NCBI GenBank assembly: GCA_052390515.1
Contig: JBQTGV010000094.1
Location: 1 to 28,823 of the forward strand
Origin: Candidatus Eiseniibacteriota bacterium
GTDB lineage: Bacteria; ARS69
DNA: 28,823 bases
Direction of reading: 5' to 3'
Below are positions 1-27,807 of the stretch, piece after piece. How positions within the stretch are numbered: the stretch's first letter is position 1; each line of letters begins with the position of its first letter. Position numbers and translations under genes: made by a program. The notes under the pieces were generated by a model. That model saw only the letters and a program-made list of their open reading frames with translations, did no database searches and had not been told where the DNA came from.

Positions 1-726
1 GGCACGAGGAGCCACGCCGATCGGATCGGAGCCGGGTGCAGACTGCGCCGATGTCCGCGCCGATCTCGTCCCGAGGAAACGCGCGACGAAGTACGCGCCA
101 TAGACCAGCCCGGAGTAGTACGCGATCTGCACGTGTCCGGCGAGCACCTGCAGCGCCATCACCCCGCCGAGCCACACGAGTGATCGTCGCGCGGCGGGGC
201 CGTCACCCGCGTCCGCACACCGCCGGCACCGCTCGATGCACCACAGTCCGAGCGGCAGCCAGCACGCGACGTTCACCATGCTCAGATGCTTGAGGTGCGA
301 GATCAGGAAGCCCGAATAGGCGATGGCCACGGCGGCGAGCATCGCGGCGGGAGTCGAGGCGACGATCCGACGCGCGAAGAGGTACATGCCCACGGCGGCG
401 ACCACGAGCGTGAGCAGCATCGTCACGTTCAGGGCCGCGTACGGAGGGAGCAGCCCGAAGAGCAGGAGATTCGGCGGATAGCAGACGCCCGCCTCGGGGC
501 GCGCCAGCAGAGGGAAGCCTCCGTAGACCGGCGGGTACCACAGGGGCAGCTCGCCGCCCTTCAGCGCTTCGCCCAGGAAGAAGCGGGAGGGGAACGCGTC
601 GTTCATGAGATCGCTGGTGAAGATGTCGTCGGTGATGACGACGCCCTGCATGGTCGTCAGGGGCCAGAACGGAACGAGCACGAGCAGCACGAGGGCGACG
701 ACCGGAGCGGTGTGGGCATGCTGCAT
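1..726 (-). CDS. YfhO-like / GT-C-type polytopic membrane protein, N-terminal part (runs off left edge)
   Basis: Not in the ORF track because it has no stop in the window. Manual translation: MQHAHTAPVVALVLLVLVPFWPL...SDLMNDAFPSRFFLGEALKGGELPLWYPPVYGGFPLLARPEAGVCYPPNLL...LQVLAGHVQIAYY. The 'GELPLW-P---G-PLLA' and 'AGH-Q' patterns are typical of YfhO-like proteins. Alternative GTG start at 735. Confidence 0.75.
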   Translation of the reverse strand, partial: MQHAHTAPVVALVLLVLVPFWPLTTMQGVVITDDIFTSDLMNDAFPSRFFLGEALKGGELPLWYPPVYGGFPLLARPEAGVCYPPNLLLFGLLPPYAALNVTMLLTLVVAAVGMYLFARRIVASTPAAMLAAVAIAYSGFLISHLKHLSMVNVACWLPLGLWCIERCRRCADAGDGPAARRSLVWLGGVMALQVLAGHVQIAYYSGLVYGAYFVARFLGTRSARTSAQSAPGSDPIGVAPRA

Positions 727-748
727 CGCACTCACGCGGCAGCCCGGC

Positions 749-5267: not shown

Positions 5268-5387
5268 GGTTCCTCCGTTCCTGGAGCCCGGGAGGCGCGT
5301 CCCGGAGCGCGTGCGGTGACCCACAGAGACGCTCGCCCGCGCCCTGATACCGCTCGACAGGCCGGCAGGGCTCTTCGAAACTCGCGG

Positions 5388-6854
5388 GTGTCGCTGCCTC
5401 GGCTGATTGTACCGCTTGCCATTGCCGCGTACGCCGCGGCCCTTCTCGCCGCGGGCGGACGGATCGCCGTGTTCGAGGACGAGGCGATCATCGTGGCGAA
5501 CGCCGGAGAGCGGGATCCAAGCGAGGTCCTGGCCGGCTACTTCCAGGCGAAAGCCGTCCTGGAGCACCCCCCGCTCTACGACCTGTTCCTCGGGGCCTGG
5601 ATCCGCGCCGCCGACCCCTCGCCGGCCATGCTCCGCGCGCCCTCGATCCTCGCCTGGGGGGTGGGGGTCTGGCTGCTCGGGCTCTGCGCCCGGCGGGTCC
5701 TGGGGCGCGCGTGGCCGACAGTGCTCATCGCGCTGGCGTGGCCGCCCGGGCCCTTCTTCGCCGTTCCGGCCCACTGGGCCTGCTTCGCCTTCCTGACGGA
5801 GGCCGGGCTGCTGTGGGCCTGGTTCACTTGGCGCGCGACCGGCCGTCCGCGGGACCTGACGGCCGCCGTGGCGTTCGGGGTGGCGATGCTCTGGACCTCC
5901 TGGTTCGGCTGGGCCGTCGTCGCCGCGCTGGCGGCCTTCGCCCTGGCGGGACGCCCCCGGCCGCCTCTCGCGCCGCTCGGGCTGGCGCTCGGCGTGCTGG
6001 TGGCCGCGTTCCTGCCGCTCGCGCCGGAGTTCGTGCGGGAGCTCGGCGCGGGGACGGACCTGGCGCGCGGGCCCGGCGCCGTCCTGGCCGACGCCGCGTA
6101 TCACGGCTGGGCGCTTCTCGCCGGCGAAGCGGTAGCGCCCTGGACCGTCCCGGCGATTCTCGTGGCCGCCGGGATGGCCGGGCTTGCCGCCGCCGCCTGG
6201 CGGGCGCGGGCCGTGCGAAGGCCGCTGGCGCTCCTCGGTGTGCTTTTCGCCGCCGGCGTCGTCTCCGGCATCCTCAACGCGAAGCGCCTCGTCATCTTCG
6301 CCCCGTTCCTGCTGCTCTCGCTCGGCGCCATCGTCGAGGGCACCACCCGGCGGCGGCTCGCCCTCGGATCCCTCGCCGTCGTGTTCGGCACCGCCTGGAT
6401 CGGTGCGCTCACCGGATCGTGGTGGGGGACGTGGCGATACGTCGAGCCCTGGGGCGAAGTCGTCGCGGACGCGTTCGCCCGCGCCCGGCCCGGTGACGTC
6501 GTGCTCTGCAACCACCCCTCGTTCTGGTTCCGCGCGCGCTTCGAGCGGGGCTGGACCGACTGGGGGCGCGTGCTTCCCGAGGCGGCCTTCGACGACGGCG
6601 GCATCGTCTGCTCCCCGCTGGTCGGCTGGCGCGACGTCGTCGAGCGGCGGAACCACGTCATCCACGTCCGGACCGTCGTGAACCCGGATCGAAGCGAGGA
6701 GCAGCGCTTGCTCGAAGAGCACCTGGCAGGGGAGTTCACGCTCTCGACGCCGCGGCGCTGGATCGAGGACCGCGCGTCCGGCCTGAAGAACCGGTTCGTG
6801 GGAAACCAGCCGCGGTGGCGGATCGAGATCACCGAGTGGACGCGCGGCGGGTAG
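5388..6854 (+). CDS. Polytopic membrane glycosyltransferase (GT-C / ArnT-PMT-like)
   Basis: FEDEA and EHPPLYDL..LRAPS motifs after the first TM helix, and many TM segments. Start GTG 5388 inferred. Confidence 0.7.
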   Translation: MSLPRLIVPLAIAAYAAALLAAGGRIAVFEDEAIIVANAGERDPSEVLAGYFQAKAVLEHPPLYDLFLGAWIRAADPSPAMLRAPSILAWGVGVWLLGLCARRVLGRAWPTVLIALAWPPGPFFAVPAHWACFAFLTEAGLLWAWFTWRATGRPRDLTAAVAFGVAMLWTSWFGWAVVAALAAFALAGRPRPPLAPLGLALGVLVAAFLPLAPEFVRELGAGTDLARGPGAVLADAAYHGWALLAGEAVAPWTVPAILVAAGMAGLAAAAWRARAVRRPLALLGVLFAAGVVSGILNAKRLVIFAPFLLLSLGAIVEGTTRRRLALGSLAVVFGTAWIGALTGSWWGTWRYVEPWGEVVADAFARARPGDVVLCNHPSFWFRARFERGWTDWGRVLPEAAFDDGGIVCSPLVGWRDVVERRNHVIHVRTVVNPDRSEEQRLLEEHLAGEFTLSTPRRWIEDRASGLKNRFVGNQPRWRIEITEWTRGG

Positions 6855-6925
6855 CGTGCTCGGAGCGCGGAACGCCGGCCGCGCCGAGTCGGGCCCACGC
6901 GCCGAGGCAACGGCCACAACGCGAA

Positions 6926-6955
6926 GCGCCCCGGGCTCCTTCGAGTCCGGGGCGC
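6926..6955 (-). terminator. Hairpin terminator after peptide 1, also convergent with the GT-C gene
   Basis: GCGCCCCGGACTC-GAAG-GAGCCCGGGGCGC-TT; conserved after peptides 2 and 3. Confidence 0.65.
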
Positions 6956-6981
6956 CGCCGCCTCTTCCTGCCGCCTCGTTC

Positions 6982-7152
6982 TTAGCGGTTCCGGACGCTG
7001 ATCGACTGAACCGCCAGGTCGCCGAAGTGGTCGCCGCTCTCGCCCGGGTCGCCGATCGGCTGCGCGGGAGTTCCCGTCCCACCGACCACCTTCACCAGTT
7101 CCTCGTTCGCCAGGGCCTTCACCGTCGTCTCGTTCAGGTTCTTGCGCGTCAT
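6982..7152 (-). CDS. Double-glycine-leader precursor peptide 1 (56 aa)
   Basis: MTRKNLNETTVKALANEELVKVVGG|TGTPAQPIGDPGESGDHFGDLAVQSISVRNR. GAGGAG RBS and an L-x2-EEL-x2-V-x-GG leader. Confidence 0.85.
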   Translation of the reverse strand: MTRKNLNETTVKALANEELVKVVGGTGTPAQPIGDPGESGDHFGDLAVQSISVRNR

Positions 7153-7216
7153 TTTCGGATCTCCTCTGGTTTGGTTTCTCGTTCGCCTTTGCAACCCTGT
7201 TCGATGCACGCCTCCG

Positions 7217-7245
7217 TACGCGGGGCGGCTCGGGGTTCTCGGGGG
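7217..7245 (-). promoter_or_regulatory. Putative ECF promoter motif A, copy 1
   Basis: CCCCCGAGAAC-N14-CGTA; five copies with identical spacing in the window. Confidence 0.75.
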
Positions 7246-7339
7246 GGTGTGCCCGGGGGCGCCGCATCCGCAGGACGGCCGAAGGGGAGGCGACCGGCGC
7301 CGGGACGGGCGACAGCTCCTTGTAGCTGGTGGTCTCGTC

Positions 7340-7831
7340 CTAGCTGGCCGTCTCGTCCAGGGCAGTCTCGATCGCCCGGCGCAGCTTGGCGTCCTTGGGG
7401 TCGAGGCGGGGGTCGAAGCGGGAGATGACCCGGCCGTCGCGGGCGACGAGGTACTTCGTGAAGTTCCAGCTGGGGTCGGGGTGATCCCGGGTGAGGAAAC
7501 GGTAGATCTCGTCCTTCCCGCGGCCCTTCACTTTGCGCTTCGCGAAGAGTGGGAAGCTCACGGCGTAGCGGGAGGAGCAGAAGGCGCGGATCTCTTCCGG
7601 ACTACCGGGCTCCTGGCCACCGAAGTCGTTGCTGGGGAAGCCGAGCACCGTGAAACCCCTCGGCGCAAGTTCTCCGTGCAGTGCCTCGAGGGCGGTGTAC
7701 TGCGGTGTCAGACCGCAGCGGCTGGCCAGGTTGACGACGAGGCAGACCCGCCCGGCGAATGTCGAGAGGGGCGCCGGGGAGCCTTCCAGGGTGTCGGTCG
7801 TGAAATCGAAGAACGACGGCGGCGCGGGCAA
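7340..7831 (-). CDS. gpx: Glutathione peroxidase family protein (Cys type)
   Basis: VVNLASRCGLTPQY, LGFPSNDFGGQEPG and WNFTKYLV motifs. TTG start 7831 after GGAGG. Catalytic codon is TGC, not Sec. Confidence 0.93.
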   Translation of the reverse strand: MPAPPSFFDFTTDTLEGSPAPLSTFAGRVCLVVNLASRCGLTPQYTALEALHGELAPRGFTVLGFPSNDFGGQEPGSPEEIRAFCSSRYAVSFPLFAKRKVKGRGKDEIYRFLTRDHPDPSWNFTKYLVARDGRVISRFDPRLDPKDAKLRRAIETALDETAS

Positions 7832-7908
7832 GGGCGAACCTCCGGACGGCGCAGAATAACCCGAACGCGTCGGCGCCGCGAAGCCGGGGGAACCCCCCGG
7901 ACGGCAAA

Positions 7909-7938
7909 GCGCCCCGGACCCTTTCGAGCCCAGGGCGC
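7909..7938 (-). terminator. Hairpin terminator after peptide 2
   Basis: GCGCCCTGGGCTC-GAAA-GGGTCCGGGGCGC-TTT. Confidence 0.65.
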
Positions 7939-7962
7939 CGGCGCCAGCCCGCTCGGTCTGCC

Positions 7963-8130
7963 TTAGCGGCCCGGCTTGGAGAACGCCTGCCACGCCATCT
8001 CGCCGAAGGCCTCGCCGGTCTCGGCCGGGTCGCCGATCGGCTGCTCGGGGGTGCCCGTCCCGCCGACCACCTTCGCCAGTTCCTCGTTCGCCAGGGCCTT
8101 TACCGTCTCGTTCAGGTTCTTGCGCGTCAT
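7963..8130 (-). CDS. Double-glycine-leader precursor peptide 2 (55 aa)
   Basis: MTRKNLNETVKALANEELAKVVGG|TGTPEQPIGDPAETGEAFGEMAWQAFSKPGR; GAGGAG RBS. Confidence 0.85.
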   Translation of the reverse strand: MTRKNLNETVKALANEELAKVVGGTGTPEQPIGDPAETGEAFGEMAWQAFSKPGR

Positions 8131-8194
8131 TTGAGTCTCTCCTCTGGTTTGGTTTCTCGTTCGCCTTTGCAACCCTGTTCGATGCACGCCTCCG

Positions 8195-8223
8195 TACGGT
8201 GGCCGGGCGGGGGTTCTCGGGGG
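8195..8223 (-). promoter_or_regulatory. Putative ECF promoter motif A, copy 2
   Basis: CCCCCGAGAAC-CCCCGCCCGGCCAC-CGTA. Confidence 0.75.
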
Positions 8224-8273
8224 GGTCGGGGCGAGGGAAGTTCGACGTCCTGGGAGGCCGGCCCCAACGCGAA

Positions 8274-8304
8274 GCGCCCCGGGCTCCTTCGAGTCCCGGG
8301 GCGC
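8274..8304 (-). terminator. Hairpin terminator after peptide 3
   Basis: GCGCCCCGGGACTC-GAAG-GAGCCCGGGGCGC-TT. Confidence 0.65.
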
Positions 8305-8330
8305 CTCCGCCTCTTCCTGCCCCCTCGTTC

Positions 8331-8495
8331 CTAGCGGTTCCGGACGCTGATCGACTGGACCGCCAGGTCGCCGAAGTGGTCGCCGCTCTCGCCCGGGTCG
8401 CCGATCGGCTGCGCGGGGGTTCCCGTCCCGCCGACCACCTTCGCCAGTTCCTCGCTCGCCAGGGCCTTCACCGTCTCGAACCGATTGCGCGTCAT
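8331..8495 (-). CDS. Double-glycine-leader precursor peptide 3 (54 aa)
   Basis: MTRNRFETVKALASEELAKVVGG|TGTPAQPIGDPGESGDHFGDLAVQSISVRNR. Core identical to peptide 1 with only synonymous DNA changes. Confidence 0.85.
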   Translation of the reverse strand: MTRNRFETVKALASEELAKVVGGTGTPAQPIGDPGESGDHFGDLAVQSISVRNR

Positions 8496-8559
8496 TTTCG
8501 GATCTCCTCTGGTTTGGTTTCTCGTTCGCCCTTGCATCCCTGTTCGATGCACGCCTCCG

Positions 8560-8588
8560 TACGGGGGGGAGCTCGGGGTTCTCGGGGG
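8560..8588 (-). promoter_or_regulatory. Putative ECF promoter motif A, copy 3
   Basis: CCCCCGAGAAC-CCCGAGCTCCCCCC-CGTA. Confidence 0.75.
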
Positions 8589-8663
8589 AGATGCAGCGCT
8601 GGCAGACAACGGCGTCGCCTCTGGGGCCGCGCGATGGAGGACATCCTTCGGCTACACTGGTCG

Positions 8664-9983
8664 TGGACAATCGTCCTAGGAGGTCGCGTCGACGCCGCCA
8701 GCTATCCCCCCGGAAACTCGACTCTGGGCGCGGCTGCGCTGGCGGCGGGCCCTCTGGGCTGCCGTGCTTCTCGCTGCGGCTGGTCTCTTTGTGAGTTGGA
8801 TGTTGATGCCGATTCCGGCGAGCTTACGGGCACAGGGGAGTGTCACGTGGTTTCGGGCGAGCACATCGCGCGCAGTCGCGCCAGCCAACGTCGCGGGCGC
8901 GCCGGCCATCCGTGCGGACAGTGTTTGCATGACGGTGTTTGGTCCCATAGAAGCGTTGGTGTTTGCGGACTCAGGGTGGAGCACTCAGGCGGCTGACATT
9001 TCATTCCTAGGCACGAGCCTAGGGGCAGCCAATGACTCGACGTTCCCAGCTGACATCGAGTTTGACGGGGCGAGGGTGGACGAGCACCCGTGTCGCTACG
9101 CGGCGGCGTTGCGCGCGACGCTCTCTTCGCGGGAGATATGGCGTTCTGGCTCCACCGCACTGACACGCTGCATCTAATCGGGCCACAGGTGACACCGACG
9201 GTGGATGTGGTTGATCCGACGCTCCTCTGGGCATTGCCGTACGAAGCCGAACTGATTGTCGCATGGACTGAGCGAGGCGTCCCCGCTGCCGTGTCCGCGC
9301 GGTTACCCGACGAGTTCTTACTGCTTTCACCTGAGGCCGTACTGGCGAAGCCAGGTCACAGCCTGGCTATTGCGGGTGCAGGAACGGCGTGCTTCCGGTT
9401 CACACCCCAAGCAGACTCTACGGACGAACAGCGCACTACGCTCGTGTTGAACATCCCAGAGCTGGAGTTCAACACGTTCGGTGGACAGGTACGCGTGGGC
9501 GCTGTGCTCGCCGAGGGTGTATTCGGGGGGAACGCGGTCCTGACCCAGAAGCTGTATGTCGTTCCTTATGCGGGAACAGAGCCATTCTCCTTCGCGGTGT
9601 CGCAGGTCTCGGGCGATAGTCTCGCGGTTCAGTGGCTAGCCCGCACTGGTGGAGCCAGGGAAGTGTGCGCCTATGGATCGGGACTTGTCGCGCTTGTGGG
9701 GACAGAGCAACACACCCTCGGCGCCCTGGACGACATCGAGTTCATTGGCGATCTCGTCTTCTCCGTCGTATGGGAGGCGCCGCAGCTCGCGCAGTTGAGC
9801 GTGGTTGGTCGCGTTAGCTCATGTAAGCGGCATGGTCAGCAGATACTCTCGTCCAGGTGGGGGGCGTTGTCTGACGAGGTGCGTGGTGGGATTGCGGGTG
9901 GAGTGGCCGCTGTTTTGCTCACCGTGGTGATAGGGTCGCTCCGCGGCCGCACTCTGCTCGACTGGTTTGTACGACGCGTGTGA
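8664..9983 (+). pseudogene. Lower-GC hypothetical membrane-anchored protein, apparently frameshifted (ORF pieces 8764-9177 and 9090-9983)
   Basis: Visibly more A/T-rich than the flanks. An N-terminal TM (LWAAVLLAAAGLFVSWML) and a C-terminal TM (GIAGGVAAVLLTVVIG) lie in different frames, and the first TM frame has no start codon upstream of it. Confidence 0.45.
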
Positions 9984-10122
9984 CGGTTGCAGAGTGCCAA
10001 TCTGGAGCAACGTTGCACGTCTGTGAGCCCCGTAAGGTGAGCGCCAGGAATGCCCCGGTCTACAGGTCCGACTCACGCCGAGTTCGACCCGCGGCTCCCT
10101 CAATGTCTGGGGTGCGATGCGC

Positions 10123-10845
10123 TCACTCCGGCACGCGCAACCTCAAGGAGAACCACCCCGCGGTGACGTCCTCGAACTCGGCAAGGAAGTGAGAGGCTCC
10201 CTCGACCGCTTCGAGACGCGCGGTCCGCTCCGGCGCGTCCTTCCCGGTGATGAGCACGACCTCGCCGCCGGGCTTGCCCTCGTCGACGATCACCGAGATC
10301 GAGCGCCGCCGCGCGTCGACCACCACTTCGCCGACCTTGCGCCCGCCGATCCGCAGGTCCAGCCGCGCCACGGCGCTCGTCCGCGCATCGAGCCGACCGG
10401 CTTCCTCCAGCGCGGCCAGCGCCGCGCGCTCGTCGCCCGAGGCGCAGTGGGCCGACGCGCGCTCCGCGAGACGAGCCGCTTCGCCCTCGTCCCCGGGCGC
10501 GCCGACGCCGCCGTACGCCGGCCGGAACGCCGCCTCGAACCCGCCGAGTCCGTGCGCGGTCTCCGCCACGCGGTCGAGAGCCGCCGTCGCCAGGCGCTTC
10601 GCGCCGTCGAGCATCCCGCGGACGACCACGTCCATCGCCCCCGGCACTGGCGCCATCCGCGCGGTCATCTCGTCGACGAACCCGGACCAGGAACCCTCGA
10701 AGTCGCTGCGGATCCGCCGCACCGCCGCGTACCGCTGCGCGCAGGCGCCGCAGCCGTCGAGGTGCGAGAACAGCCCCTCCGCCTCGGCCGGGCTCGTTCG
10801 CCCGGCGGCGAACGTGATCAGATCTTCCTGGGTGGGGTGCCGCAT
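10123..10845 (-). CDS. Zinc-finger (zf-HC2/ZAS) anti-sigma factor, predicted soluble
   Basis: MRHPTQEDL...HLDGCGAC (H-x3-C-x2-C), no clear TM helix, GGAGAGG RBS, directly downstream of the sigma gene. Confidence 0.82.
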   Translation of the reverse strand: MRHPTQEDLITFAAGRTSPAEAEGLFSHLDGCGACAQRYAAVRRIRSDFEGSWSGFVDEMTARMAPVPGAMDVVVRGMLDGAKRLATAALDRVAETAHGLGGFEAAFRPAYGGVGAPGDEGEAARLAERASAHCASGDERAALAALEEAGRLDARTSAVARLDLRIGGRKVGEVVVDARRRSISVIVDEGKPGGEVVLITGKDAPERTARLEAVEGASHFLAEFEDVTAGWFSLRLRVPE

Positions 10846-10904: not shown

Positions 10905-11870
10905 TTACGCGCCGCCCTCCCGGGTTCTCGGGGGGTCCGGAAGCGGCAGCCAGCGGGTGGAGGCCGGATCCTCGAATACCTTCCGGATCCGGTTCTTCAC
11001 CGAGTGGGTCCAGTCGGAGACCGATCGCCGCGGATCCTCACCGAAGTACTCCTGGAGCTGTGCCGATCCCACGCTCCTCTCCGCCACCATCCGCCAGCGC
11101 TCGGCCGAGGCCGGGTCCCGGGCGAAGAGTTCCCGTCCGGTCATGGCCAGCCGCCCGTCCAGCGGCTGCCTCACCCTCGCCAGGTACTCGGGATCCAGCC
11201 GCCCGGAGACGGCCAGGTCCTCCAGCATCCCGTTCGCCGCCGGCTCGAGATCCTGCGGCCCGACCTCCCGCACGACCCGGTCCGGATCCCCGGTGATCGG
11301 GACCTTCACCGTCACGGCATCGCCCTTCCGCTGGTCCTTGCCCCAGACGAGGATGCTGTACCCGAAGGTGACCTGCTGGTGAGGATAGCCGCCCCAGCGC
11401 AGGAACGTCTCCAGCAGCTCGAGGAAGACCCGCGAGGGGCCCTCCGCCCCGGGGTCGGCGAAGCGGCCTTCGCCCATGGCCCGGCGAAAGGCCAGCGGCA
11501 GGTCCTTCATCTCGAGGGCCGACAGCTCCGTCGTCTCCGCGTCGTCTCCCTCGTCGTCCAGGGAGCCCACGAGATCACGCCGGCCGTAGAGGAAGCGCTT
11601 CACGACGCTTCGCGCCAGACCCTTGGCGAACGTGACGAACGCGTACGACGGGTCGTACTTCTCAAGGCGCCGGAACAGGTAGATGCGGACTTCCTGCAGC
11701 ACCTCGTCGACTTCGACGTGAGGCGCGCTGCGCAGCGCTCCGCGCAGCAGGTTCGTCAGGTCCCGCTCGACCGCCGCCCAGAGCCGGTCGAACGCGCGGG
11801 AATCCCCGGCCACGACCTTGCGCACGAGCTCGGCTTCCGCTGGCGAGGCCTGCGTCGTCTCGCTCGTCAC
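10905..11870 (-). CDS. Atypical ECF-type sigma-70 factor (321 aa)
   Basis: Region 2-like: ELVRKVVAGDSRAFDRL...VDEVLQEV...LEKYDPSYAFVTF. C-terminal HTH-like SAQLQEYFGEDPRRSVSDWTHSVKNRIRKVF. GGAGG RBS before GTG. Confidence 0.75.
   Translation of the reverse strand: MTSETTQASPAEAELVRKVVAGDSRAFDRLWAAVERDLTNLLRGALRSAPHVEVDEVLQEVRIYLFRRLEKYDPSYAFVTFAKGLARSVVKRFLYGRRDLVGSLDDEGDDAETTELSALEMKDLPLAFRRAMGEGRFADPGAEGPSRVFLELLETFLRWGGYPHQQVTFGYSILVWGKDQRKGDAVTVKVPITGDPDRVVREVGPQDLEPAANGMLEDLAVSGRLDPEYLARVRQPLDGRLAMTGRELFARDPASAERWRMVAERSVGSAQLQEYFGEDPRRSVSDWTHSVKNRIRKVFEDPASTRWLPLPDPPRTREGGA
10906..10934 (-). promoter_or_regulatory. Putative ECF promoter motif A, copy 4, inside the sigma 3' end and upstream of the anti-sigma
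   Basis: CCCCCGAGAAC-CCGGGAGGGCGGCG-CGTA; the CGTA overlaps the sigma TAA stop. Confidence 0.72.
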
Positions 11871-11900: not shown

Positions 11901-13379
11901 TCAGCCCCTCTCCGCGGGCGCGTCGATGCGCCGCGACATCGTCACGTCCCGCGGGCGGTTCCACTCACGGTCCAGCCGCGCGACGAGCGCCGATGCGTCG
12001 CAGCCGGAGGCCTCCAGCACCTTGCGCACGTTGCGGCTCGGGCTGTCCAGCACGGCCCAGAGCACGTCGCCTTCCTCGACGACCGCCGAGCCGCGGTTGC
12101 GCGCGTTGGACCGAGCCGTCTCCCGCGTGACGCGGTGGCTCGCTGTCTCTTCGCCCGGACCCTGGTGGTGCTCCTGCGGCAGGCTCTTCTCGATGATGTT
12201 GCAGACCGCCTGCGTCCGGCTCCCGCAGGACTCCAGCATGCGATGGATGAGCGGCCCCTCCGCCGCGCACAGACCGTACAGGATGTGCAGCGTCTCGCGG
12301 GAGCGTGCGCCGCAGCGCTCCCGGAGCGCCTCGGCGGCCCAGTACGCCGCCTGCACCGTGGCTTCGTTGGCCGGCGAGAGCGGGCGAACGCCGCCGCGCG
12401 GCGGACGGGACGCGCGCACGTCCACGGCGTGCACGGGGCCGGCGCGCCACATCCGGGCGCGCGCCGCGGCCACGGCCTCGTCGAACGTGAAGCGATGATC
12501 GCCCGCGCAGACGCTCGTGCTCTCGAGGGTCAGGATCTCGCCGGCGGCCGCGCGGGCGGCAAGGTCGAGGCCGTCGGCCAGCAGCGGGCGATGTCGTTCG
12601 CCCGCGTCCGCCCAGGCGCCGATCCACGCGTGCGTCGGAGCGCCGGACGTCTCTCCCTCGAAGAGGATCAGCGGACCGAGCCCCACGGACTCGAGACACG
12701 CGGCGAAGAGCAGCGTCAGGTCGAGGCAGTTGCCGCGGCCGCGGCGTGCGCCCGGCTCGCCGGCGATCTCTTGCGGCGAACGCACCGTCTGGTGCGACGT
12801 GCCGCACTCCGGGTCGAGGGTGACGCGAGGGGTCTCGTAGGCGATCTCGTGCGCCGACGCGAGGAGCTCGTGCAGCGCGCGCATCACCGCGGCGACGGCC
12901 TCGCGGGAGCCGCCGCGGGCGATCTCCGGGAGCGAACCGGGGCCCGCGTCCGCCACGGTGCGGAAGACCACGTCGTCGCCGGACGAGGCATGGGCGGCAA
13001 CCAGGCGCCGCGCCTCGGGGTGGTGCGGCCACTCGCGCGCGGGAAGCAGCGCCACCGGAACCCGCGCGACCGGCGTCCCCTCGAGGCGCACCTCGAGACC
13101 GGCGGCCATGCGGCGCGGGAGCGCTTCGAGGCGGTCGGTCGTCGTGGGAGAGAGCGGCGAAGGCACGACCGGGTTTCCGGCGCGCACCGCGAGCGTCCAG
13201 TCGAGCTCGGGGATCCGCAGCTCGGCGAGCGCAGGAGGCCGCTGCCCACCGGACGGCGCATGCAGCGCCGTCACGGGCGACATTCCCGCCAGCGCCTCGG
13301 CGTACCCGTACGCAGGCAGGTACTCGACCACGAGCCCGGCGGCTCCGCTGGGATGGACGACGGTCGTTTTCACCCGCAC
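11901..13379 (-). CDS. Transglutaminase/papain-like Cys-His domain fused to a C-terminal ClpN-like repeat domain
   Basis: RGNCLDLTLLFAACLESVGL-PL...THAWIGAW...LESTS catalytic-type motif. C-terminal AYWAAEALR...ETLHILYGL...ARSNARNRGSAVVEEGDVLWAVL resembles Clp N-terminal repeats. Confidence 0.7.
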   Translation of the reverse strand: MRVKTTVVHPSGAAGLVVEYLPAYGYAEALAGMSPVTALHAPSGGQRPPALAELRIPELDWTLAVRAGNPVVPSPLSPTTTDRLEALPRRMAAGLEVRLEGTPVARVPVALLPAREWPHHPEARRLVAAHASSGDDVVFRTVADAGPGSLPEIARGGSREAVAAVMRALHELLASAHEIAYETPRVTLDPECGTSHQTVRSPQEIAGEPGARRGRGNCLDLTLLFAACLESVGLGPLILFEGETSGAPTHAWIGAWADAGERHRPLLADGLDLAARAAAGEILTLESTSVCAGDHRFTFDEAVAAARARMWRAGPVHAVDVRASRPPRGGVRPLSPANEATVQAAYWAAEALRERCGARSRETLHILYGLCAAEGPLIHRMLESCGSRTQAVCNIIEKSLPQEHHQGPGEETASHRVTRETARSNARNRGSAVVEEGDVLWAVLDSPSRNVRKVLEASGCDASALVARLDREWNRPRDVTMSRRIDAPAERG

Positions 13380-14194: not shown

Positions 14195-14362
14195 TTACTC
14201 GCTGACGGCAACGCTGCTGCGCAGCGGGATGATGTCGCCGGCTTGGTCGTCCAGCAGACGGCTCTCGCGCAGCGGGACCATGTCGGCGGATCCGCCGGTG
14301 ACGTGGGTCAGCTCGGCTTCGGTCAGGTTCCTCATGCTCGCCTTCATCGCCTGGGAGTTCAT
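14195..14362 (-). CDS. Double-glycine-leader precursor peptide 4 (55 aa)
   Basis: MNSQAMKASMRNLTEAELTHVTGG|SADMVPLRESRLLDDQAGDIIPLRSSVAVSE. AAGGAG RBS and the same upstream motif. Confidence 0.8.
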   Translation of the reverse strand: MNSQAMKASMRNLTEAELTHVTGGSADMVPLRESRLLDDQAGDIIPLRSSVAVSE

Positions 14363-14421: not shown

Positions 14422-14450
14422 TACGCGGGTGGGGGCCGGGTTCTCGGGGG
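14422..14450 (-). promoter_or_regulatory. Putative ECF promoter motif A, copy 5
   Basis: CCCCCGAGAAC-CCGGCCCCCACCCG-CGTA. Confidence 0.75.
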
Positions 14451-25696: not shown

Positions 25697-25711
25697 CCTA
25701 GGAGAGGGCGA

Positions 25712-26296
25712 TTGACCTCGGTGGGGTCCGGGCGGGAGACGCTGTCGGCGGAGGATCTCGCGCGGGTCGCGGCACGGGATCCGGAGGCGCTGGGTCGCTT
25801 CTTCGACGCCTGGGTGGATCGCGTCTTCGCGCTCGCCTACCGGCTGCTGGGCAACCGGACCGCCGCGGAGGACGTGTCGCAGGAGGTGTTCCTCAAGATC
25901 CACCGCGCGATCGACCGCCTGGACCCCCAGCGCGATCCCGGTCCCTGGGTCACGACGATCACCTGCAACGCCTGCCGGGAGTACTGGCGCAGTTCGGCAC
26001 AGCGCGCCGCGAGGAGCTCGGTATCCGTCGACGACCTGGAGGACTGGCAGGATGCGCATCCCCGGAGCGGGGATTCGCCCGAGGAACAGGTGCTCCGCGC
26101 GGAGCGCGAGGCGCGCGTGCAGCGAGCGCTCCTCGAGCTTCCCCCCGAGCTGCGTGAGGTCGTCGTGCTTCACGACTGGCGCGGCATGAAGCACCGGGAG
26201 ATCGCCGAGACCGTCGGCGCGACGCACGACGCCGTTCGCAAGAGGTACTCGCGCGCGCTGGCCGAGCTCGCCCGGCTGCTGAAGGACGACGCATGA
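25712..26296 (+). CDS. ECF sigma-70 factor
   Basis: AAEDVSQEVFLKI...W---I--N-CR; LPPELREVVVLHDWRGMKHREIAETVG. TTG start after AGGAG. Confidence 0.92.
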   Translation: MTSVGSGRETLSAEDLARVAARDPEALGRFFDAWVDRVFALAYRLLGNRTAAEDVSQEVFLKIHRAIDRLDPQRDPGPWVTTITCNACREYWRSSAQRAARSSVSVDDLEDWQDAHPRSGDSPEEQVLRAEREARVQRALLELPPELREVVVLHDWRGMKHREIAETVGATHDAVRKRYSRALAELARLLKDDA

Positions 26297-27102
26297 GCCA
26301 CGATCCGGATCCGACGGCGGCGTACTCGAGCCCCGAGGAGCGGCGCGCCGCGGAGGCGGTGCACGCGCTCGGCGAGGCGCGGATCGATGCCGCGTTCCGG
26401 GCGCGGTTGCGCGGGCACTTCGTCGCCGGATCGTTCGCCGCGGCCACCGAAGAGCCGGTGCGCCGCTCCGCGCCGATCGTCCCCCTCTTCGCCTTCGCCG
26501 CGGCGGCGTCGGCCGCGCTCCTGGTCTGGCTCGGCAGCGCTCCGCCCCGCTGGACCTTCGCCGGGGCTGCGGGCGCGGGCGAGCTGCGCATCGACGGTCG
26601 GGTCGTGGACGCCGCGGATCCCGGCGCGGTGGGCGCGGCGCTCGCGCCGGGCGCCCTGCTCGTCACGTCAGGCAGCCTCGAACTCGACCTCGTCCTGGCC
26701 AATCGACTGACCCTCGAGGTCACCCCCGGAACCGAGCTCACGCTCCCCGACACGCCGCGCCGCTGGTTCGGGGGCCACGCTTCCTGCGAGATCGTCCGCG
26801 GCGACGCACGCTTCGCCACGGGCCGGGAGATGCCCGGGCGCCGGTTCGTCGTGCAGTCACCTCTGGCCGCGATCGAGGTGACCGGAACGAGGTTCGCGGT
26901 GATCGCCGAGCCGGACGGTGCGTGCGTCTGCGTCTGCGTCCTCGACGGCTCGGTGTCGGTGACCGATCCTGACGGAACGACCCACTCCGTGACCGGCGGA
27001 CTCCGGCGTACCCTGTTCCGCGAGGCGGACCCGGACGTGGGCGAGATGCGTGCCGACGAGCGGGTGAAGCTCGCGGAACTGGCGGATCCGGACCTGAACT
27101 GA
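26293..27102 (+). CDS. FecR-domain membrane anti-sigma factor
   Basis: Single TM (LFAFAAAASAALLVWL), then G-ARF...F-VQSP-A-IEVTGTRFAV...VLDGSVSV. ATGA overlap with the sigma gene. Confidence 0.88.
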   Translation: MSHDPDPTAAYSSPEERRAAEAVHALGEARIDAAFRARLRGHFVAGSFAAATEEPVRRSAPIVPLFAFAAAASAALLVWLGSAPPRWTFAGAAGAGELRIDGRVVDAADPGAVGAALAPGALLVTSGSLELDLVLANRLTLEVTPGTELTLPDTPRRWFGGHASCEIVRGDARFATGREMPGRRFVVQSPLAAIEVTGTRFAVIAEPDGACVCVCVLDGSVSVTDPDGTTHSVTGGLRRTLFREADPDVGEMRADERVKLAELADPDLN

Positions 27103-27114
27103 GAGGAGGGCGCG

Positions 27115-27807
27115 GTCTTCTTCCCCATCGGCGACGACAACTCCACCCGGCGCTCTCTGCCCTTCGTCACCTGGACGCTGATCGCGGCGAACGCGGCGGT
27201 CTACGCCTGGCAGGTCGGGCATCCGGAGTTCACGTACGGATACAGCGTCGTCCCGCGGGAGATCACGTCGGGCGAAGACCTGGCCGGCATCGTGCGGCTC
27301 GGCGACGCGGGCTTGCAGCTCTTCCCCGGACCGACGCCGGTCTACTGGACCATCCTCTGGGCGATGTTCATGCACGGCGGCTGGTCGCACATCGGCGGCA
27401 ACATGCTCTACCTGTGGATCTTCGGCGACAACGTCGAGGACCGCATGGGACACGGGAGGTTCCTGGCCTTCTATCTGCTCTGCGGCGTGCTGGCCAGCGC
27501 CGCCCACATCTTCTTCGGCCCGACCTCGGTGATTCCCTCGCTCGGCGCTTCCGGCGCGATCGCCGGCGTGCTGGGCGCATACCTCGTGCTCTTCCCGCGC
27601 CAAGGCGTCCGCGTGCTCACCTACGGCCGGATCACCGAGATGCCCGCGCTGATCGTGATCGGCCTCTGGGGCGTCCTGCAGTTCCTCAACGGGTTCGGCT
27701 CGCTGGCGAACGTCGGGGAGACCGGCGGCGTCGCCTACATGGCGCACGTCGGTGGGTTCGTCGCCGGGCTCGTGCTGGTCTCGCTGTTCCGGAAGCGCGC
27801 CCGCTGA
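27115..27807 (+). CDS. Rhomboid-family intramembrane serine protease (start codon anomalous)
   Basis: FPIGDDN N-terminus, MFMHGGWSHIGGNMLYLWIFGDNVED, GASGA, AHVGG. No ATG/GTG/TTG at the expected start. Confidence 0.9.
   Translation, partial: VFFPIGDDNSTRRSLPFVTWTLIAANAAVYAWQVGHPEFTYGYSVVPREITSGEDLAGIVRLGDAGLQLFPGPTPVYWTILWAMFMHGGWSHIGGNMLYLWIFGDNVEDRMGHGRFLAFYLLCGVLASAAHIFFGPTSVIPSLGASGAIAGVLGAYLVLFPRQGVRVLTYGRITEMPALIVIGLWGVLQFLNGFGSLANVGETGGVAYMAHVGGFVAGLVLVSLFRKRAR

What the first reader, a model, noticed from the sequence alone, without database searches (positions are those of the whole stretch)
6982..8495. Family of GG-leader precursors with conserved core TGTPxQPIGDPxExGxxFGxxAxQxxSxxxR
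Peptides 1 and 3 have identical 31-aa cores. Their DNA differences there are synonymous (ACT/ACC, GTT/GTC), as are GGT/GGC in the GG motif and the TAA/TAG stop, which argues for real coding under selection. Peptide 2 is a same-length variant. The cores lack Cys, are mostly acidic and are Gly/Pro-rich. They do not look like cationic class II bacteriocins, lanthipeptides or sactipeptides, so they could be signalling peptides or a new RiPP class (inference).
Basis: partly seen in the sequence, partly recalled or inferred. Interest (0 to 1): 0.8.

Follow-up and report, generated by a model that had tools for sequence, protein, structure and literature searches.

The report
Sigma-controlled exported peptide gene family
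Four small genes of an uncultured bacterium encode short acidic peptides that carry a standard cut-and-export tag and share one promoter motif with a neighbouring sigma/anti-sigma gene pair; this is a new sequence family of an ordinary kind of secreted peptide, and it is unknown whether the peptides are weapons or signals.

Summary
Three minus-strand genes (6982-7152, 7963-8130, 8331-8495) encode 54-56-aa precursors with a canonical double-glycine leader and 31-aa acidic, Cys-free cores. They are real genes. The evidence is in-frame GC3 of 0.91-0.96, metagenomic homologues with the same leader, GG site and core, and paralogues sharing contigs in relatives.

I add four things.
- A fourth GG-leader gene with an unrelated core lies at 14195-14362.
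- All four genes, plus the zinc-finger anti-sigma gene beside an ECF-like sigma gene, sit behind a bipartite motif, CCCGAGAACCC-N12-CGTA. It occurs 5 times in the 4.27-Mb genome, all in this window, and 0 times in 11 related genomes.
- The genome has one complete peptidase-ABC exporter (PCAT) with a HlyD partner, on another contig. A complex model places the GG site at its catalytic Cys/His.
- The C-terminal half of the core has diversified (pN 0.46 vs pS 0.08).

No modifying enzyme was found, so "new RiPP class" is unsupported. Bacteriocin versus signal stays open.

The family is rare: 5 hits among 1.84 billion representative proteins, and 1 of 12 phylum genomes. Earlier notes of this scan describe sigma-wired GG peptides in other phyla. 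Verdict: a new member of a known kind, of moderate interest.

The parts
6982..7152 (-). pep1: 56-aa precursor with a 25-aa double-glycine leader and a 31-aa acidic core
   Evidence: ORF and translation. GC3 0.91. Homologues.
7963..8130 (-). pep2: 55-aa precursor with the same leader and first half of the core, and a diverged C-terminal half
   Evidence: GC3 0.96. pN 0.46 against pS 0.08 in core residues 16-31 versus pep1.
8331..8495 (-). pep3: 54-aa precursor with a core identical to pep1
   Evidence: GC3 0.94.
14195..14362 (-). pep4 (P0017): 55-aa precursor with a GG leader and an unrelated 31-aa acidic core. It lies outside the finding's span.
   Evidence: Homologues P0026 (95% identity) and P0027 (78%). 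GC3 0.91.
7217..7243 (-). Bipartite promoter-like motif CCCGAGAACCC-N12-CGTA, 65 nt upstream of the pep1 ATG
8195..8221 (-). The same motif upstream of pep2
8560..8586 (-). The same motif upstream of pep3
14422..14448 (-). The same motif upstream of pep4. The flanks are not homologous to those of pep1-3.
10906..10932 (-). The same motif upstream of the anti-sigma gene. Its CGTA overlaps the stop codon of the sigma gene.
7153..7216 (-). Presumed 5' leader of pep1 with a Shine-Dalgarno sequence (GGAG) 8 nt before the ATG. Near-identical copies lie at 8131-8194 and 8496-8559. No significant RNA structure was found.
   Evidence: Alignment A1. Fold z -1.36. No Rfam family.
6926..6955 (-). G+C-rich terminator-like hairpin after pep1. 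Equivalent hairpins lie at about 7909-7938 after pep2 and 8274-8305 after pep3.
   Evidence: Folds with z -3.68, -3.62 and -4.83. The simple terminator scan did not call them because the U-tract is weak.
10905..11870 (-). P0015: 321-aa ECF-like sigma protein with a sigma-2 domain and a conserved C-terminal region of about 200 aa. It is the candidate reader of the motif.
   Evidence: Sigma70_r2 E 3.6e-5. TIGR02937 29.7 bits, below its cut-off. Model pLDDT 84, with Z 12.9 to SigW sigma-2.
10123..10845 (-). 240-aa anti-sigma candidate with an N-terminal zf-HC2 domain and an H-x3-C-x2-C motif. I saw no membrane segment.
   Evidence: zf-HC2 E 3e-4, 21.2 bits against a cut-off of 22.2. Sequence.
7340..7833 (-). 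Glutathione peroxidase gene between pep2 and pep1. The probable start is a TTG near 7833 behind GGAGG. A relative keeps it next to a pep1-like gene.
   Evidence: GSHPx E 2.2e-34. A 1214-nt contig of run X2 bridges both genes. The start codon was read from the sequence.

Best explanation
The locus is a small regulon of four single-gene units. Each has a promoter motif, a 5' leader of about 60 nt with a Shine-Dalgarno site, a 54-56-codon ORF and a hairpin terminator. Each ORF encodes a precursor of a secreted peptide.

Inferred mechanism:
1. The AAC/CGTA-type promoter is read by the neighbouring ECF-like sigma P0015.
2. P0015 is held in check by the adjacent cytoplasmic zinc-finger (H-x3-C-x2-C) anti-sigma.
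3. The anti-sigma gene carries the same promoter, which would give negative feedback.
4. [quoted passage not shown]
5. The PCAT cuts after GG and, with its HlyD-type partner and a TolC-type channel, exports 31-residue, unmodified, acidic, linear peptides of about 3.2-3.3 kDa.
6. In the three paralogues the first half of the mature peptide (TGTPxQPIGDPGESG) is a conserved module. The C-terminal half, predicted with low confidence to be helical, is the fast-evolving specificity part.

What the peptides do outside the cell is the least certain step. I put about 35% on a narrow-spectrum microcin-like antagonist, about 35% on a signal and about 30% on something else.

Shown here: the genes, the leader features, the motif and its distribution, the presence of the exporter, and the pattern of substitutions. 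Inferred: every functional step.
For: **Genes and family.**
- Three paralogues plus pep4.
- 11 homologous clusters, all 55-69 aa, with invariant M1, the VKAL..EL..V.GG leader and P-x-Q-P-I-x-D-P.
- Paralogues share contigs in relatives (contigs of 7973, 7114 and 17747 nt).
- One member is named 'bacteriocin-like protein' by its source.

**Leader.**
- Hydrophobic residues at -4, -7, -12 and -15 and Glu at -8 (read; the consensus is recalled).
- Sub-threshold hits to bacteriocin_sig TIGR01847 (13.5 bits against 15.7) and ComC.

**Exporter.**
- The contig C11 ORF has Peptidase_C39 (E 1e-33), ABC_membrane and ABC_tran domains, with an overlapping HlyD gene.
- The catalytic Cys41 and His114 are present.
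- 13 OEP-domain matches show TolC-type genes in the genome.
- A relaxed genome-wide pattern search gave 14 hits. Only the four window genes look like true GG-leader peptides.

**Complex model of the C39 domain with pep1.**
- Score 0.73; best of 3 controls 0.01.
- The pass mark was reached by 58 of 80 solved complexes and 2 of 110 mismatched pairs.
- The runs agree in at least 74% of contacts, and the partner's pLDDT is at least 56.
- The interface includes C39 residues 38-42 and 113-115 and peptide residues 18-29, which places GG at the active site.
- Like complexes have been solved, so this shows likeness, not binding.

**Promoter motif.**
- The 13-mer occurs 5 times in the window against 0.12 expected.
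- The full pattern occurs 5 times in the genome, all on the window's minus strand and all upstream of a start codon. It occurs 0 times in 11 related genomes. The reversed control gave 0 in this genome and 2 in the others.
- The spacer sequence varies while the spacing is fixed.
- AAC at -35 and CGT at -10 are the ECF hallmark (PMC8103513, passage read).

**Sigma P0015.**
- The sigma-2 fold scores Z 12.9, rmsd 2.5 A over 93 residues against SigW.
- The 89%-identical sigma homologue and the 78%-identical pep4 homologue both sit on a contig of 35023 nt.

**Diversification (pep1 versus pep2).**
- Core residues 16-31: pN 0.46 against pS 0.08.
- Leader: pN 0.03. Core residues 1-15: pN 0.09.
- Fisher p 0.026 for non-synonymous against synonymous changes in the tail, and 3e-6 for the tail against the rest.
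Against: - There is no evidence of transcription or of the peptides themselves.
- The exporter is on another contig, so the pairing rests only on its being the sole complete PCAT in a 95%-complete, 223-contig assembly.
- The link between sigma and promoter is by proximity only. The motif precedes the anti-sigma gene, not the sigma gene, so classic autoregulation is not seen.
- P0015 is not a standard ECF sigma: it has 321 aa, and sigma-4 is only weakly suggested (Z 5.2-5.3).
- The AAC-to-CGT spacing of 14 nt is shorter than the 16-17 nt I recall for ECF promoters.
- Three of the five motif copies are duplicates of one another, so there are only three independent occurrences.
- Against a microcin role: no adjacent immunity-type ORF; cores of 31 aa and hydrophilic (GRAVY -0.64 and -0.84 for pep1-3, -0.05 for pep4), against 60-90 aa and about 61% hydrophobic residues in known class II microcins (PMC10233263).
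- Against a signal role: no histidine kinase or other receptor was recognised nearby, and the anti-sigma appears cytoplasmic.
- The strongly conserved 15 residues after GG are unusual for plain cargo and could mark a modification or a second processing site.
Confidence: 0.55

Rival explanations
1. The peptides are secreted signals, either a quorum or alarm pheromone. They would be exported by the PCAT and sensed by an unidentified receptor, with the variable C-terminal half defining 'pherotypes' as in ComC/CSP.
For: - The cores are short, hydrophilic and unmodified.
- No immunity gene lies beside any of the four genes.
- They are wired to a dedicated regulator pair.
- Pfam ComC gives weak hits of 16 and 12.7 bits.
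- In pneumococci many GG peptides are signals or have no adjacent receptor, and are exported by transporters encoded elsewhere (PMC7595303, passages read).
- Earlier notes of this scan read similar sigma-linked GG peptides in other phyla as candidate signals (unchecked).
Against: - No histidine kinase or other receptor was recognised in the window.
- The only response regulator (1879-2505) is an orphan 4.5 kb away.
- I saw no membrane segment in the anti-sigma, so it cannot sense an external peptide directly.
- Four different products from one promoter type fit a cocktail better than one signal.
Confidence: 0.3
2. The peptides are RiPP precursors. The conserved Thr-x-Thr...Asp...Glu...Asp stretch after GG would be modified, for example by ester cross-links as in graspetides or by O-glycosylation, by an enzyme encoded elsewhere or by the unclassified membrane protein at about 5400-6854.
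For: - The first 15 core residues are far more conserved than cargo usually is.
- Distant members keep the GG-T-x-x-P-x-x-P-x-x-D-P-G junction with quite different tails. P0014 has a Cys-rich tail.
- pep4 gives a weak hit to a putative ATP-grasp target family, TIGR04497, at 15.3 bits against a cut-off of 32.
Against: - TIGR04187 and TIGR04185 maturase models gave 0 matches at E <= 0.01 in the 95%-complete genome.
- No modifying enzyme was recognised in the window.
- The membrane protein has no Pfam, NCBIfam or PDB match, and its gene converges on pep1 rather than being co-transcribed with it.
- Its likeness to GT-C glycosyltransferases is only my recollection of sequence motifs.
Confidence: 0.1
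3. The genes encode small proteins that stay inside the cell, for example stress-response factors of the sigma regulon. The GG motif would be a chance likeness to export leaders.
For: - The exporter is not linked to the genes.
- A glutathione peroxidase gene sits among them and stays adjacent in a relative.
- The anti-sigma has the zinc motif of redox-sensing relatives (read; the family's behaviour is recalled).
Against: - The whole leader, not just GG, fits the export consensus at five positions, and it is the most conserved part of the family.
- The C39 docking model passes with the scissile bond at Cys41/His114.
- Four such leaders and one PCAT occur in the same genome.
Confidence: 0.05

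Closest known systems
Class II microcins of Gram-negative bacteria (MccV/CvaC with CvaAB-TolC) (PMC10233263 and PMC12219008, passages read)
   Same: [quoted passage not shown] The genome has a C39-ABC exporter, a HlyD-type fusion protein and TolC-type channels. The charge is anionic. No modification enzymes are present.
   Different: The cores are 31 aa and hydrophilic, against 60-90 aa and hydrophobic. No immunity gene is adjacent. The exporter is not beside the peptide genes. The leader is 24-25 aa against 15-18 aa. Activity is untested.
Pneumococcal double-glycine peptides (CSP, BIP, BriC, CibAB, VP1) (PMC7595303, passages read)
   Same: Several GG-leader genes are scattered away from the transporter that exports them, switched on together by one regulatory pathway, and have varied roles (signal, bacteriocin, biofilm). 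Many have no known receptor.
   Different: Those are from a Gram-positive host and are controlled by two-component or Rgg systems. Here the control is probably an ECF-like sigma with a zinc-finger anti-sigma, in a bacterium with an outer membrane. There is no sequence similarity beyond the leader.
Class IIa (pediocin-like) bacteriocins and bacteroidetocins (PMC6671954 abstract; mention in PMC10233263)
   Same: A GG leader is followed by a mature peptide whose N-terminal part is conserved across the family. Bacteroidetocins also lack an immunity gene and come from the same broad bacterial group. The conserved-N, variable-C layout of class IIa peptides is recalled, not taken from a paper read here.
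   Different: There is no YGNGV-type box, no Cys or disulfide, and the charge is acidic instead of cationic. No profile hit to those families appeared.
ECF sigma / ZAS anti-sigma modules such as SigR-RsrA and RpoE-ChrR (hallmarks from PMC8103513, passage read; the examples are recalled)
   Same: A sigma-2 domain protein lies next to a zf-HC2 protein with H-x3-C-x2-C. The target motif has AAC and CGT boxes at a fixed spacing.
   Different: The sigma has 321 aa with a large conserved C-terminal region instead of a plain sigma-4 domain. The motif precedes the anti-sigma gene, not the sigma gene. The apparent regulon consists of secreted-peptide genes.

Membership tests
Double-glycine-leader cargo of peptidase-ABC transporters (PCAT) | N-terminal leader of about 15-30 residues ending in GG/GA, with the hydrophobic and acidic pattern at -4, -7, -8, -12 and -15 | tested here: met
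   All four precursors and all 13 aligned family members have it. The positional consensus itself is recalled.
Double-glycine-leader cargo of peptidase-ABC transporters (PCAT) | Curated leader model (TIGR01847 bacteriocin_sig) scores above its cut-off | tested here: not met
   13.5 bits (pep2) and 13.4 bits (pep4) against a cut-off of 15.7. No hit was listed for pep1 or pep3.
Double-glycine-leader cargo of peptidase-ABC transporters (PCAT) | A PCAT with an intact catalytic Cys and His in the same genome | tested here: met
   Contig C11 25240-27447: Peptidase_C39 + ABC_membrane + ABC_tran, with Cys41 and His114 present. It lies on another contig.
Double-glycine-leader cargo of peptidase-ABC transporters (PCAT) | The leader is bound and cut by the C39 domain | not testable with these tools
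   Only a model: score 0.73 against a best control of 0.01. This is a textbook pair, so the pass may come from memory of solved complexes.
Class II microcins (five-part cluster, PMC10233263) | An immunity gene immediately adjacent to or overlapping the peptide gene | tested here: not met
   Each of pep1-3 ends in a hairpin with no co-oriented small ORF behind it. Downstream of pep4 I read only the sequence and the fold and ran no ORF list there. Immunity proteins have no sequence signature, so a distant one is not excluded.
Class II microcins (five-part cluster, PMC10233263) | PCAT and fusion-protein genes close to the peptide gene | tested here: not met
   No C39 or ABC gene was found in the 28.8-kb window. 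The PCAT is on contig C11.
Class II microcins (five-part cluster, PMC10233263) | Core of about 60-90 aa (5-10 kDa), hydrophobic | tested here: not met
   Cores are 31 aa, 3.2-3.3 kDa, with GRAVY -0.05 to -0.84.
Class II microcins (five-part cluster, PMC10233263) | Antibacterial activity | not testable with these tools
   This needs a secretion or synthetic-peptide assay.
Graspetides / ATP-grasp RiPPs | An ATP-grasp maturase is present | tested here: not met
   TIGR04187 and TIGR04185 each gave 0 matches at E <= 0.01 in the genome, which is 95% complete.
Lanthipeptides / sactipeptides | Cys in the core for thioether bridges | tested here: not met
   None of the four cores has a Cys.
ComC-type competence pheromones | ComC family match, with a histidine kinase and response regulator adjacent | tested here: not met
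   PF03047 scores 16 and 12.7 bits against a cut-off of 20.4. No kinase domain was found in the ORFs scanned.
ECF sigma factors (hallmarks in PMC8103513), for P0015 | [quoted passage not shown] | tested here: inconclusive
   Sigma-2 is clear (Z 12.9). The C-terminal region of about 200 aa gives only Z 5.2-5.3 to sigma-4 structures. TIGR02937 scores 29.7 bits against a cut-off of 42.9.
ECF sigma factors (hallmarks in PMC8103513), for P0015 | Target promoters with AAC (-35) and CGT (-10), and an adjacent anti-sigma gene | tested here: inconclusive
   The motif has both boxes and lies beside the pair. The zf-HC2 protein is adjacent. That this sigma reads the motif is inferred.

The most novel reading that the evidence does not exclude
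The sigma/zinc-finger anti-sigma pair forms a stress-gated switch whose main or only outputs are secreted peptides. Under a cytoplasmic (possibly redox) stress the cell would broadcast a cocktail of diversifying peptides. This would be a Gram-negative 'alarm peptide' system without a two-component receptor. It could be a recurring design, since earlier unchecked notes of this scan describe sigma-wired GG-leader peptides in Bacteroidota and Acidobacteriota.
Probability: 0.2. Interest if true: 0.7.

Novelty: new member of a known kind. Interest (0 to 1): 0.42.

Why it matters
Double-glycine peptides and their exporters are widespread in Gram-negative bacteria, but almost all tested examples come from enterobacteria and Firmicutes.

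- This locus gives a clean, minimal case in an uncultured phylum. Earlier notes of this scan call it Candidatus Eiseniibacteriota, and one distant sigma homologue is named Candidatus Eisenbacteria by NCBI.
- It comprises four short peptides that could be made synthetically, one exporter, and a five-site promoter motif that points to one regulator pair.
- That makes the regulon testable in a heterologous host.
- The conserved-head, variable-tail core also offers a simple way to ask what sets the specificity of such peptides.

Tried and rejected
**Known families and structures**
- Rfam on 6500-10200 gave only a chance-level isrL hit. The conserved 5' leader folds no better than shuffles (z -1.36). 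Its divergence (6 of 70 nt, pep1 against pep2) is close to the synonymous rate, so no RNA element is needed to explain it.
- The sigma-70 promoter scan found 0 sites. The simple terminator scan missed the hairpins.
- I checked a sigma-54 reading of the TTGCA stretch by eye and dropped it because the spacing and the GG element do not fit.
- AlphaFold of pep1 with 13 sequences gave pLDDT 54.6, too low to use beyond a hint of two helices.
- The protein atlas gave nothing at 0.9 or above for pep1 or for the 297-aa ORF.
- PDB sequence searches for the 5361-6854 protein and for P0016 gave 0 hits. Foldseek gave no match at E <= 0.001 for P0015.

**Searches in public collections**
- Genome contigs: 91 pattern matches, of which 2 passed tblastn. 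Both are internal stretches of roughly 150-aa ORFs in Gaiellaceae genomes that share a PAQPIGDPG string. They are not GG-leader peptides and are false positives.
- Metagenome contigs: 208 pattern matches, of which 1 passed. It is an AT-rich 44-aa ORF without GG and is a false positive.
Linkage in relatives therefore rests on shared contig lengths and on one bridging contig.
- No RNA holder was listed among the public runs.

**Relatives and literature**
- I searched about 10 kb either side of the PCAT genes of five related genomes for GG-leader ORFs with a crude pattern. None of the 5 loci had a convincing one.
- Literature searches found no paper on this family or on ECF-driven GG-leader peptides. 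These searches cover only the held library, and supplements were closed.
- A lasso-peptide reading was considered and dropped. The Thr is not at position -2, and no cyclase or protease pair was seen.
Full report
**1. What is there**

On the minus strand of 6982-8495 lie three small ORFs: pep1 at 6982-7152 (56 aa), pep2 at 7963-8130 (55 aa) and pep3 at 8331-8495 (54 aa).

Each begins with M-T-R, carries a leader ending in ...EEL-x-K-V-V-G-G, and continues with a 31-residue core. The cores of pep1 and pep3 are identical. The core of pep2 has the same length and the same first half.

An alignment of the three loci shows that the repeated unit is larger than the ORF. It includes:
- about 95 nt upstream, almost identical in all three copies, with a GGAG Shine-Dalgarno sequence 8 nt before the ATG;
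- a G+C-rich hairpin after the stop codon (fold z -3.68, -3.62 and -4.83).

A glutathione peroxidase gene lies between pep2 and pep1 (GSHPx, E 2.2e-34).

The cores have no Cys. They have pI 4.3-4.7, net charge -2.5 to -3.6, 5 Gly and 3-4 Pro.

**2. Are they genes?**

That is true but thin:
- From VKALA to the stop there are 3 synonymous and 2 non-synonymous changes.
- The chance that both core changes are synonymous is about 0.065.
- The non-coding flanks are just as similar, with 3 differences in 70 nt. The identity mainly reflects recent duplication or gene conversion.

Stronger evidence:
- In-frame GC3 is 0.91-0.96, as in the clear genes of this 70% G+C genome.
- A word-indexed search of 5.8 billion proteins returned 11 clusters of 55-69 aa, with 11 of 11 candidates at E <= 0.01. 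All are from metagenomes and all are 'hypothetical' in that listing.
- In the 13-sequence alignment the leader, the GG site and P-x-Q-P-I-x-D-P are invariant. Length differences are whole residues. The longer N-termini called by some pipelines are not conserved, whereas M-T-R is, so the M-T-R ATG is the start.
- Paralogues share contigs in relatives (contigs of 7973, 7114 and 17747 nt). One member is labelled 'bacteriocin-like protein' by its source.

**3. How rare is the family?**

- A profile search that read all 1.84 billion representative proteins found 5 hits at E <= 0.001. Two are the family itself.
- P0012 is a distant member with the same layout.
- P0014 keeps the GG-TGTPxxPxxDPG junction but has a Cys-rich tail.
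- P0013 is a 188-aa protein with three repeats of a leader-like unit.
- Among the 12 genomes held for the phylum, only this one has the family (1 of 12).
- Scans of genome and metagenome contig collections gave only false positives.
- Pfam and NCBIfam give only sub-threshold hits to the leader: BLP_Lacticasei, bacteriocin_sig at 13.5 against 15.7 bits, and ComC at 16 against 20.4 bits.
- No solved structure matches.

**4.

A BLAST of the upstream region against the whole genome showed that a 13-15-nt piece recurs twice more in the window.

One copy lies upstream of a fourth GG-leader gene, pep4 (14195-14362, minus strand; 55 aa). Its leader ends ...AELTHVTGG and its 31-aa acidic core is unrelated to the others. 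Homologues of 95% and 78% identity exist in metagenomes.

The other copy lies just upstream of a zf-HC2 anti-sigma candidate (10123-10845) and overlaps the stop codon of an ECF-like sigma gene (10905-11870).

The five sites share CCCGAGAACCC, a 12-nt spacer of varying sequence, then CGTA.

| Test | Result |
|---|---|
| 13-mer in the window | 5 found, 0.12 expected |
| 12-mer CCCCGAGAACCC in the genome | 9 copies; only the 5 in the window have CGTA at the fixed distance |
| Full pattern in this genome | 5 matches, all on the window's minus strand |
| Full pattern in 11 other genomes of the phylum | 0 matches |
| Reversed control pattern | 0 in this genome, 2 in the others |

Three of the five sites belong to the duplicated pep1-3 units, so there are three independent occurrences.

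AAC at -35 and CGT at -10 are the hallmark of ECF promoters (PMC8103513, passage read).

**5. The regulator pair**

P0015, the sigma candidate:
- It has 321 aa. The N-terminal 100 residues are a sigma-2 domain: Sigma70_r2 at E 3.6e-5 and a phmmer hit to E. coli sigma-E at E 3.7e-4.
- In an AlphaFold model (27 sequences, pLDDT 84) this domain scores Z 12.9, rmsd 2.5 A over 93 residues against SigW.
- The rest is a conserved region of about 200 aa that gives only Z 5.2-5.3 to sigma-4 structures.
- The protein belongs to a family of about 320 aa. The search listed 50 hits, most of them full-length, at 35-94% identity. One is named Candidatus Eisenbacteria by NCBI.
- None of the other 11 phylum genomes has an orthologue; only the sigma-2 part matches, in 2 of 11.

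The anti-sigma candidate has H-x3-C-x2-C in its zinc-finger region, and I saw no membrane segment.

The 89%-identical sigma homologue and the 78%-identical pep4 homologue both lie on a contig of 35023 nt. This suggests they are neighbours in a relative too.

That P0015 reads the motif is inferred from proximity and motif type. If it does, the motif in front of the anti-sigma gene would give negative feedback.

**6. The exporter**

- The window has no C39 or ABC gene.
- The genome (4.27 Mb, 223 contigs, 95% complete) has one complete PCAT, on contig C11. It has Peptidase_C39 (E 1e-33), ABC_membrane and ABC_tran domains, and its start overlaps a HlyD-family gene.
- The catalytic Cys41 and His114 are present.
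- A second C39-like domain on a 1.7-kb contig belongs to a protein that starts with a membrane segment, not to a transporter as far as can be seen.
- TolC-type OEP domains are plentiful, with 13 matches.
- A relaxed search of the whole genome for ATG-started, SD-preceded small ORFs with a leader-like motif gave 14 hits. Only the four window genes look like true GG-leader precursors.
- High-scoring C39 domains (104 bits or more) lying in long open frames of 741-1100 aa, the size expected for a transporter, occur in 6 of 12 phylum genomes; I confirmed the ABC domains only for this genome's copy. Any C39 match occurs in 10 of 12.
- A crude pattern search about 10 kb either side of five of those transporter-sized C39 genes in relatives found no convincing GG-leader ORF in any of the 5 loci. 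Unlinked cargo may therefore be usual in this group.

A complex prediction of the C39 domain (residues 1-175) with pep1 passed:
- The score was 0.73, against 0.01 for the best of 3 controls.
- The pass mark was reached by 58 of 80 solved complexes and 2 of 110 mismatched pairs.
- The runs agree in at least 74% of contacts, and the partner's pLDDT is at least 56.
- The interface joins C39 residues 38-42 and 113-115 to peptide residues 18-29, which places GG next to Cys41 and His114.
- Complexes of this kind have been solved, so the pass shows that the leader looks like a substrate, not that it binds.

**7. Evolution of the core**

Between pep1 and pep2:

| Region | pN | pS |
|---|---|---|
| Leader (VKALA to GG) | 0.03 | 0.16 |
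| Core residues 1-15 | 0.09 | 0.17 |
| Core residues 16-31 | 0.46 | 0.08 |

- Fisher p is 0.026 for non-synonymous against synonymous changes in the tail, and 3e-6 for the tail against the rest.
- Across homologues the tail keeps only a loose pattern: an aromatic or Gly, then G-D/E, a hydrophobic residue, A/G, x-Q, and a terminal Arg.
- A contig of a related organism in run X2 shows the same concentration of changes in the last codons. It also keeps a pep1-like gene next to the glutathione peroxidase gene.
- The mature peptide therefore has a conserved head and a fast-changing tail. I recall a comparable layout in class IIa bacteriocins, where the variable half sets target specificity, and in pherotype-forming signals.

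**8. What it most likely is and does**

The best-supported reading is a small regulon of PCAT-exported, unmodified, linear peptides under a dedicated sigma/anti-sigma switch.

My confidence by step:
- About 0.8 that they are cleaved and exported GG-leader peptides.
- About 0.6 that P0015 drives them.

The extracellular role is open.

| Reading | For | Against |
|---|---|---|
| Microcin-like weapon | The export route; several diversifying paralogues; an anionic charge, which is normal for microcins (PMC10233263) | Short, hydrophilic cores; no adjacent immunity gene; exporter not linked |
| Signal | Short, hydrophilic peptides; no immunity gene; regulatory wiring; precedents among pneumococcal GG peptides (PMC7595303) | No receptor recognised nearby |
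| RiPP | The strongly conserved Thr/Asp/Glu-rich head | No maturase found |

**9. Comparison and novelty**

The kind of system, GG-leader cargo of a C39-ABC exporter, is well known. PMC12219008 notes that PCATs are widespread in Gram-negative bacteria and that no role other than exporting such peptides has been reported (passage read).

New here:
- the sequence family itself;
- its phylum;
- its layout as stand-alone units without immunity or transport genes;
- a five-site promoter motif tying the peptide genes to an atypical sigma and a zinc-finger anti-sigma.

My literature searches found no description of this family or of ECF-driven GG-leader peptides. They cover only the held library, and supplements were closed.

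Earlier notes of this scan, which are unchecked, report sigma-linked GG-leader peptides in Bacteroidota and Acidobacteriota, and ECF-type promoters before other micropeptide genes in this same genome. The design may recur.

I class the finding as a new member of a known kind, of moderate interest.

Noticed in passing
window 8650-10100: This stretch has lower G+C (0.62 against about 0.70) and weak codon bias. It lies divergent from pep3 and holds overlapping plus-strand ORFs at 8764-9177 and 9090-9983, each with a hydrophobic segment at one end. There is no Pfam or NCBIfam match, no atlas hit at 0.9 or above, and no homologue in 11 related genomes. It could be a lineage-specific membrane protein, possibly frameshifted, or non-coding DNA.
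   Followed up: partly
window 11901-13379 (-): P0016 is a 492-aa protein encoded directly upstream of the sigma gene on the same strand. It has no Pfam family. Residues 126-374 match the N-terminal region of NCBIfam 'anti-phage protein ProA' (E 4e-26, 90.8 bits, far below the 1500-bit cut-off), with a weak ClpB N-domain hit behind. It may be a sensor or partner of the sigma/anti-sigma pair.
   Followed up: partly
window 10905-11870 (-) and proteins P0028-P0077: P0015 defines a family of about 320-aa sigma-2 proteins with a highly conserved C-terminal region of unknown fold. The invariant G-G-Y-P-H-Q stretch lies there. The search listed 50 metagenomic homologues.
   Followed up: partly
protein P0013 (metagenome, 188 aa): This single ORF has three tandem repeats of a unit made of a GG-leader-like segment and a short core. 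It looks like a multi-core precursor that repeats the leader as well.
   Followed up: no
protein P0014 (metagenome, 54 aa): This distant relative keeps the GG-TGTPxxPxxDPG junction but has a Cys-rich tail (C-G-C-C-x-W-C). The conserved junction therefore travels with quite different tails.
   Followed up: no
L008 10001-10093 and L009 9959-10414 (Gaiellaceae genomes): ORFs of about 150 aa contain the string PAQPIGDPG, identical to the head of the peptide core. They look like universal stress proteins by eye (not tested). I treated this as a chance match.
   Followed up: partly
window 25703-27807 (+): A second, canonical ECF sigma (Sigma70_r2 plus r4_2) is followed by a FecR-type anti-sigma gene and a rhomboid protease gene in a row.
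   Followed up: no
G000 contig C129 1-684 (-): A C39-like peptidase domain lies behind an N-terminal membrane segment at the end of a 1.7-kb contig. It is separate from the transporter on contig C11.
   Followed up: partly
window 5361-6854 (+) and 1-735 (-): These are large multi-pass membrane proteins without a family. The first has D-E and H-P-P-L strings that remind me of GT-C glycosyltransferases (recalled, not tested). The second gives weak YfhO and DUF6044 hits.
   Followed up: partly
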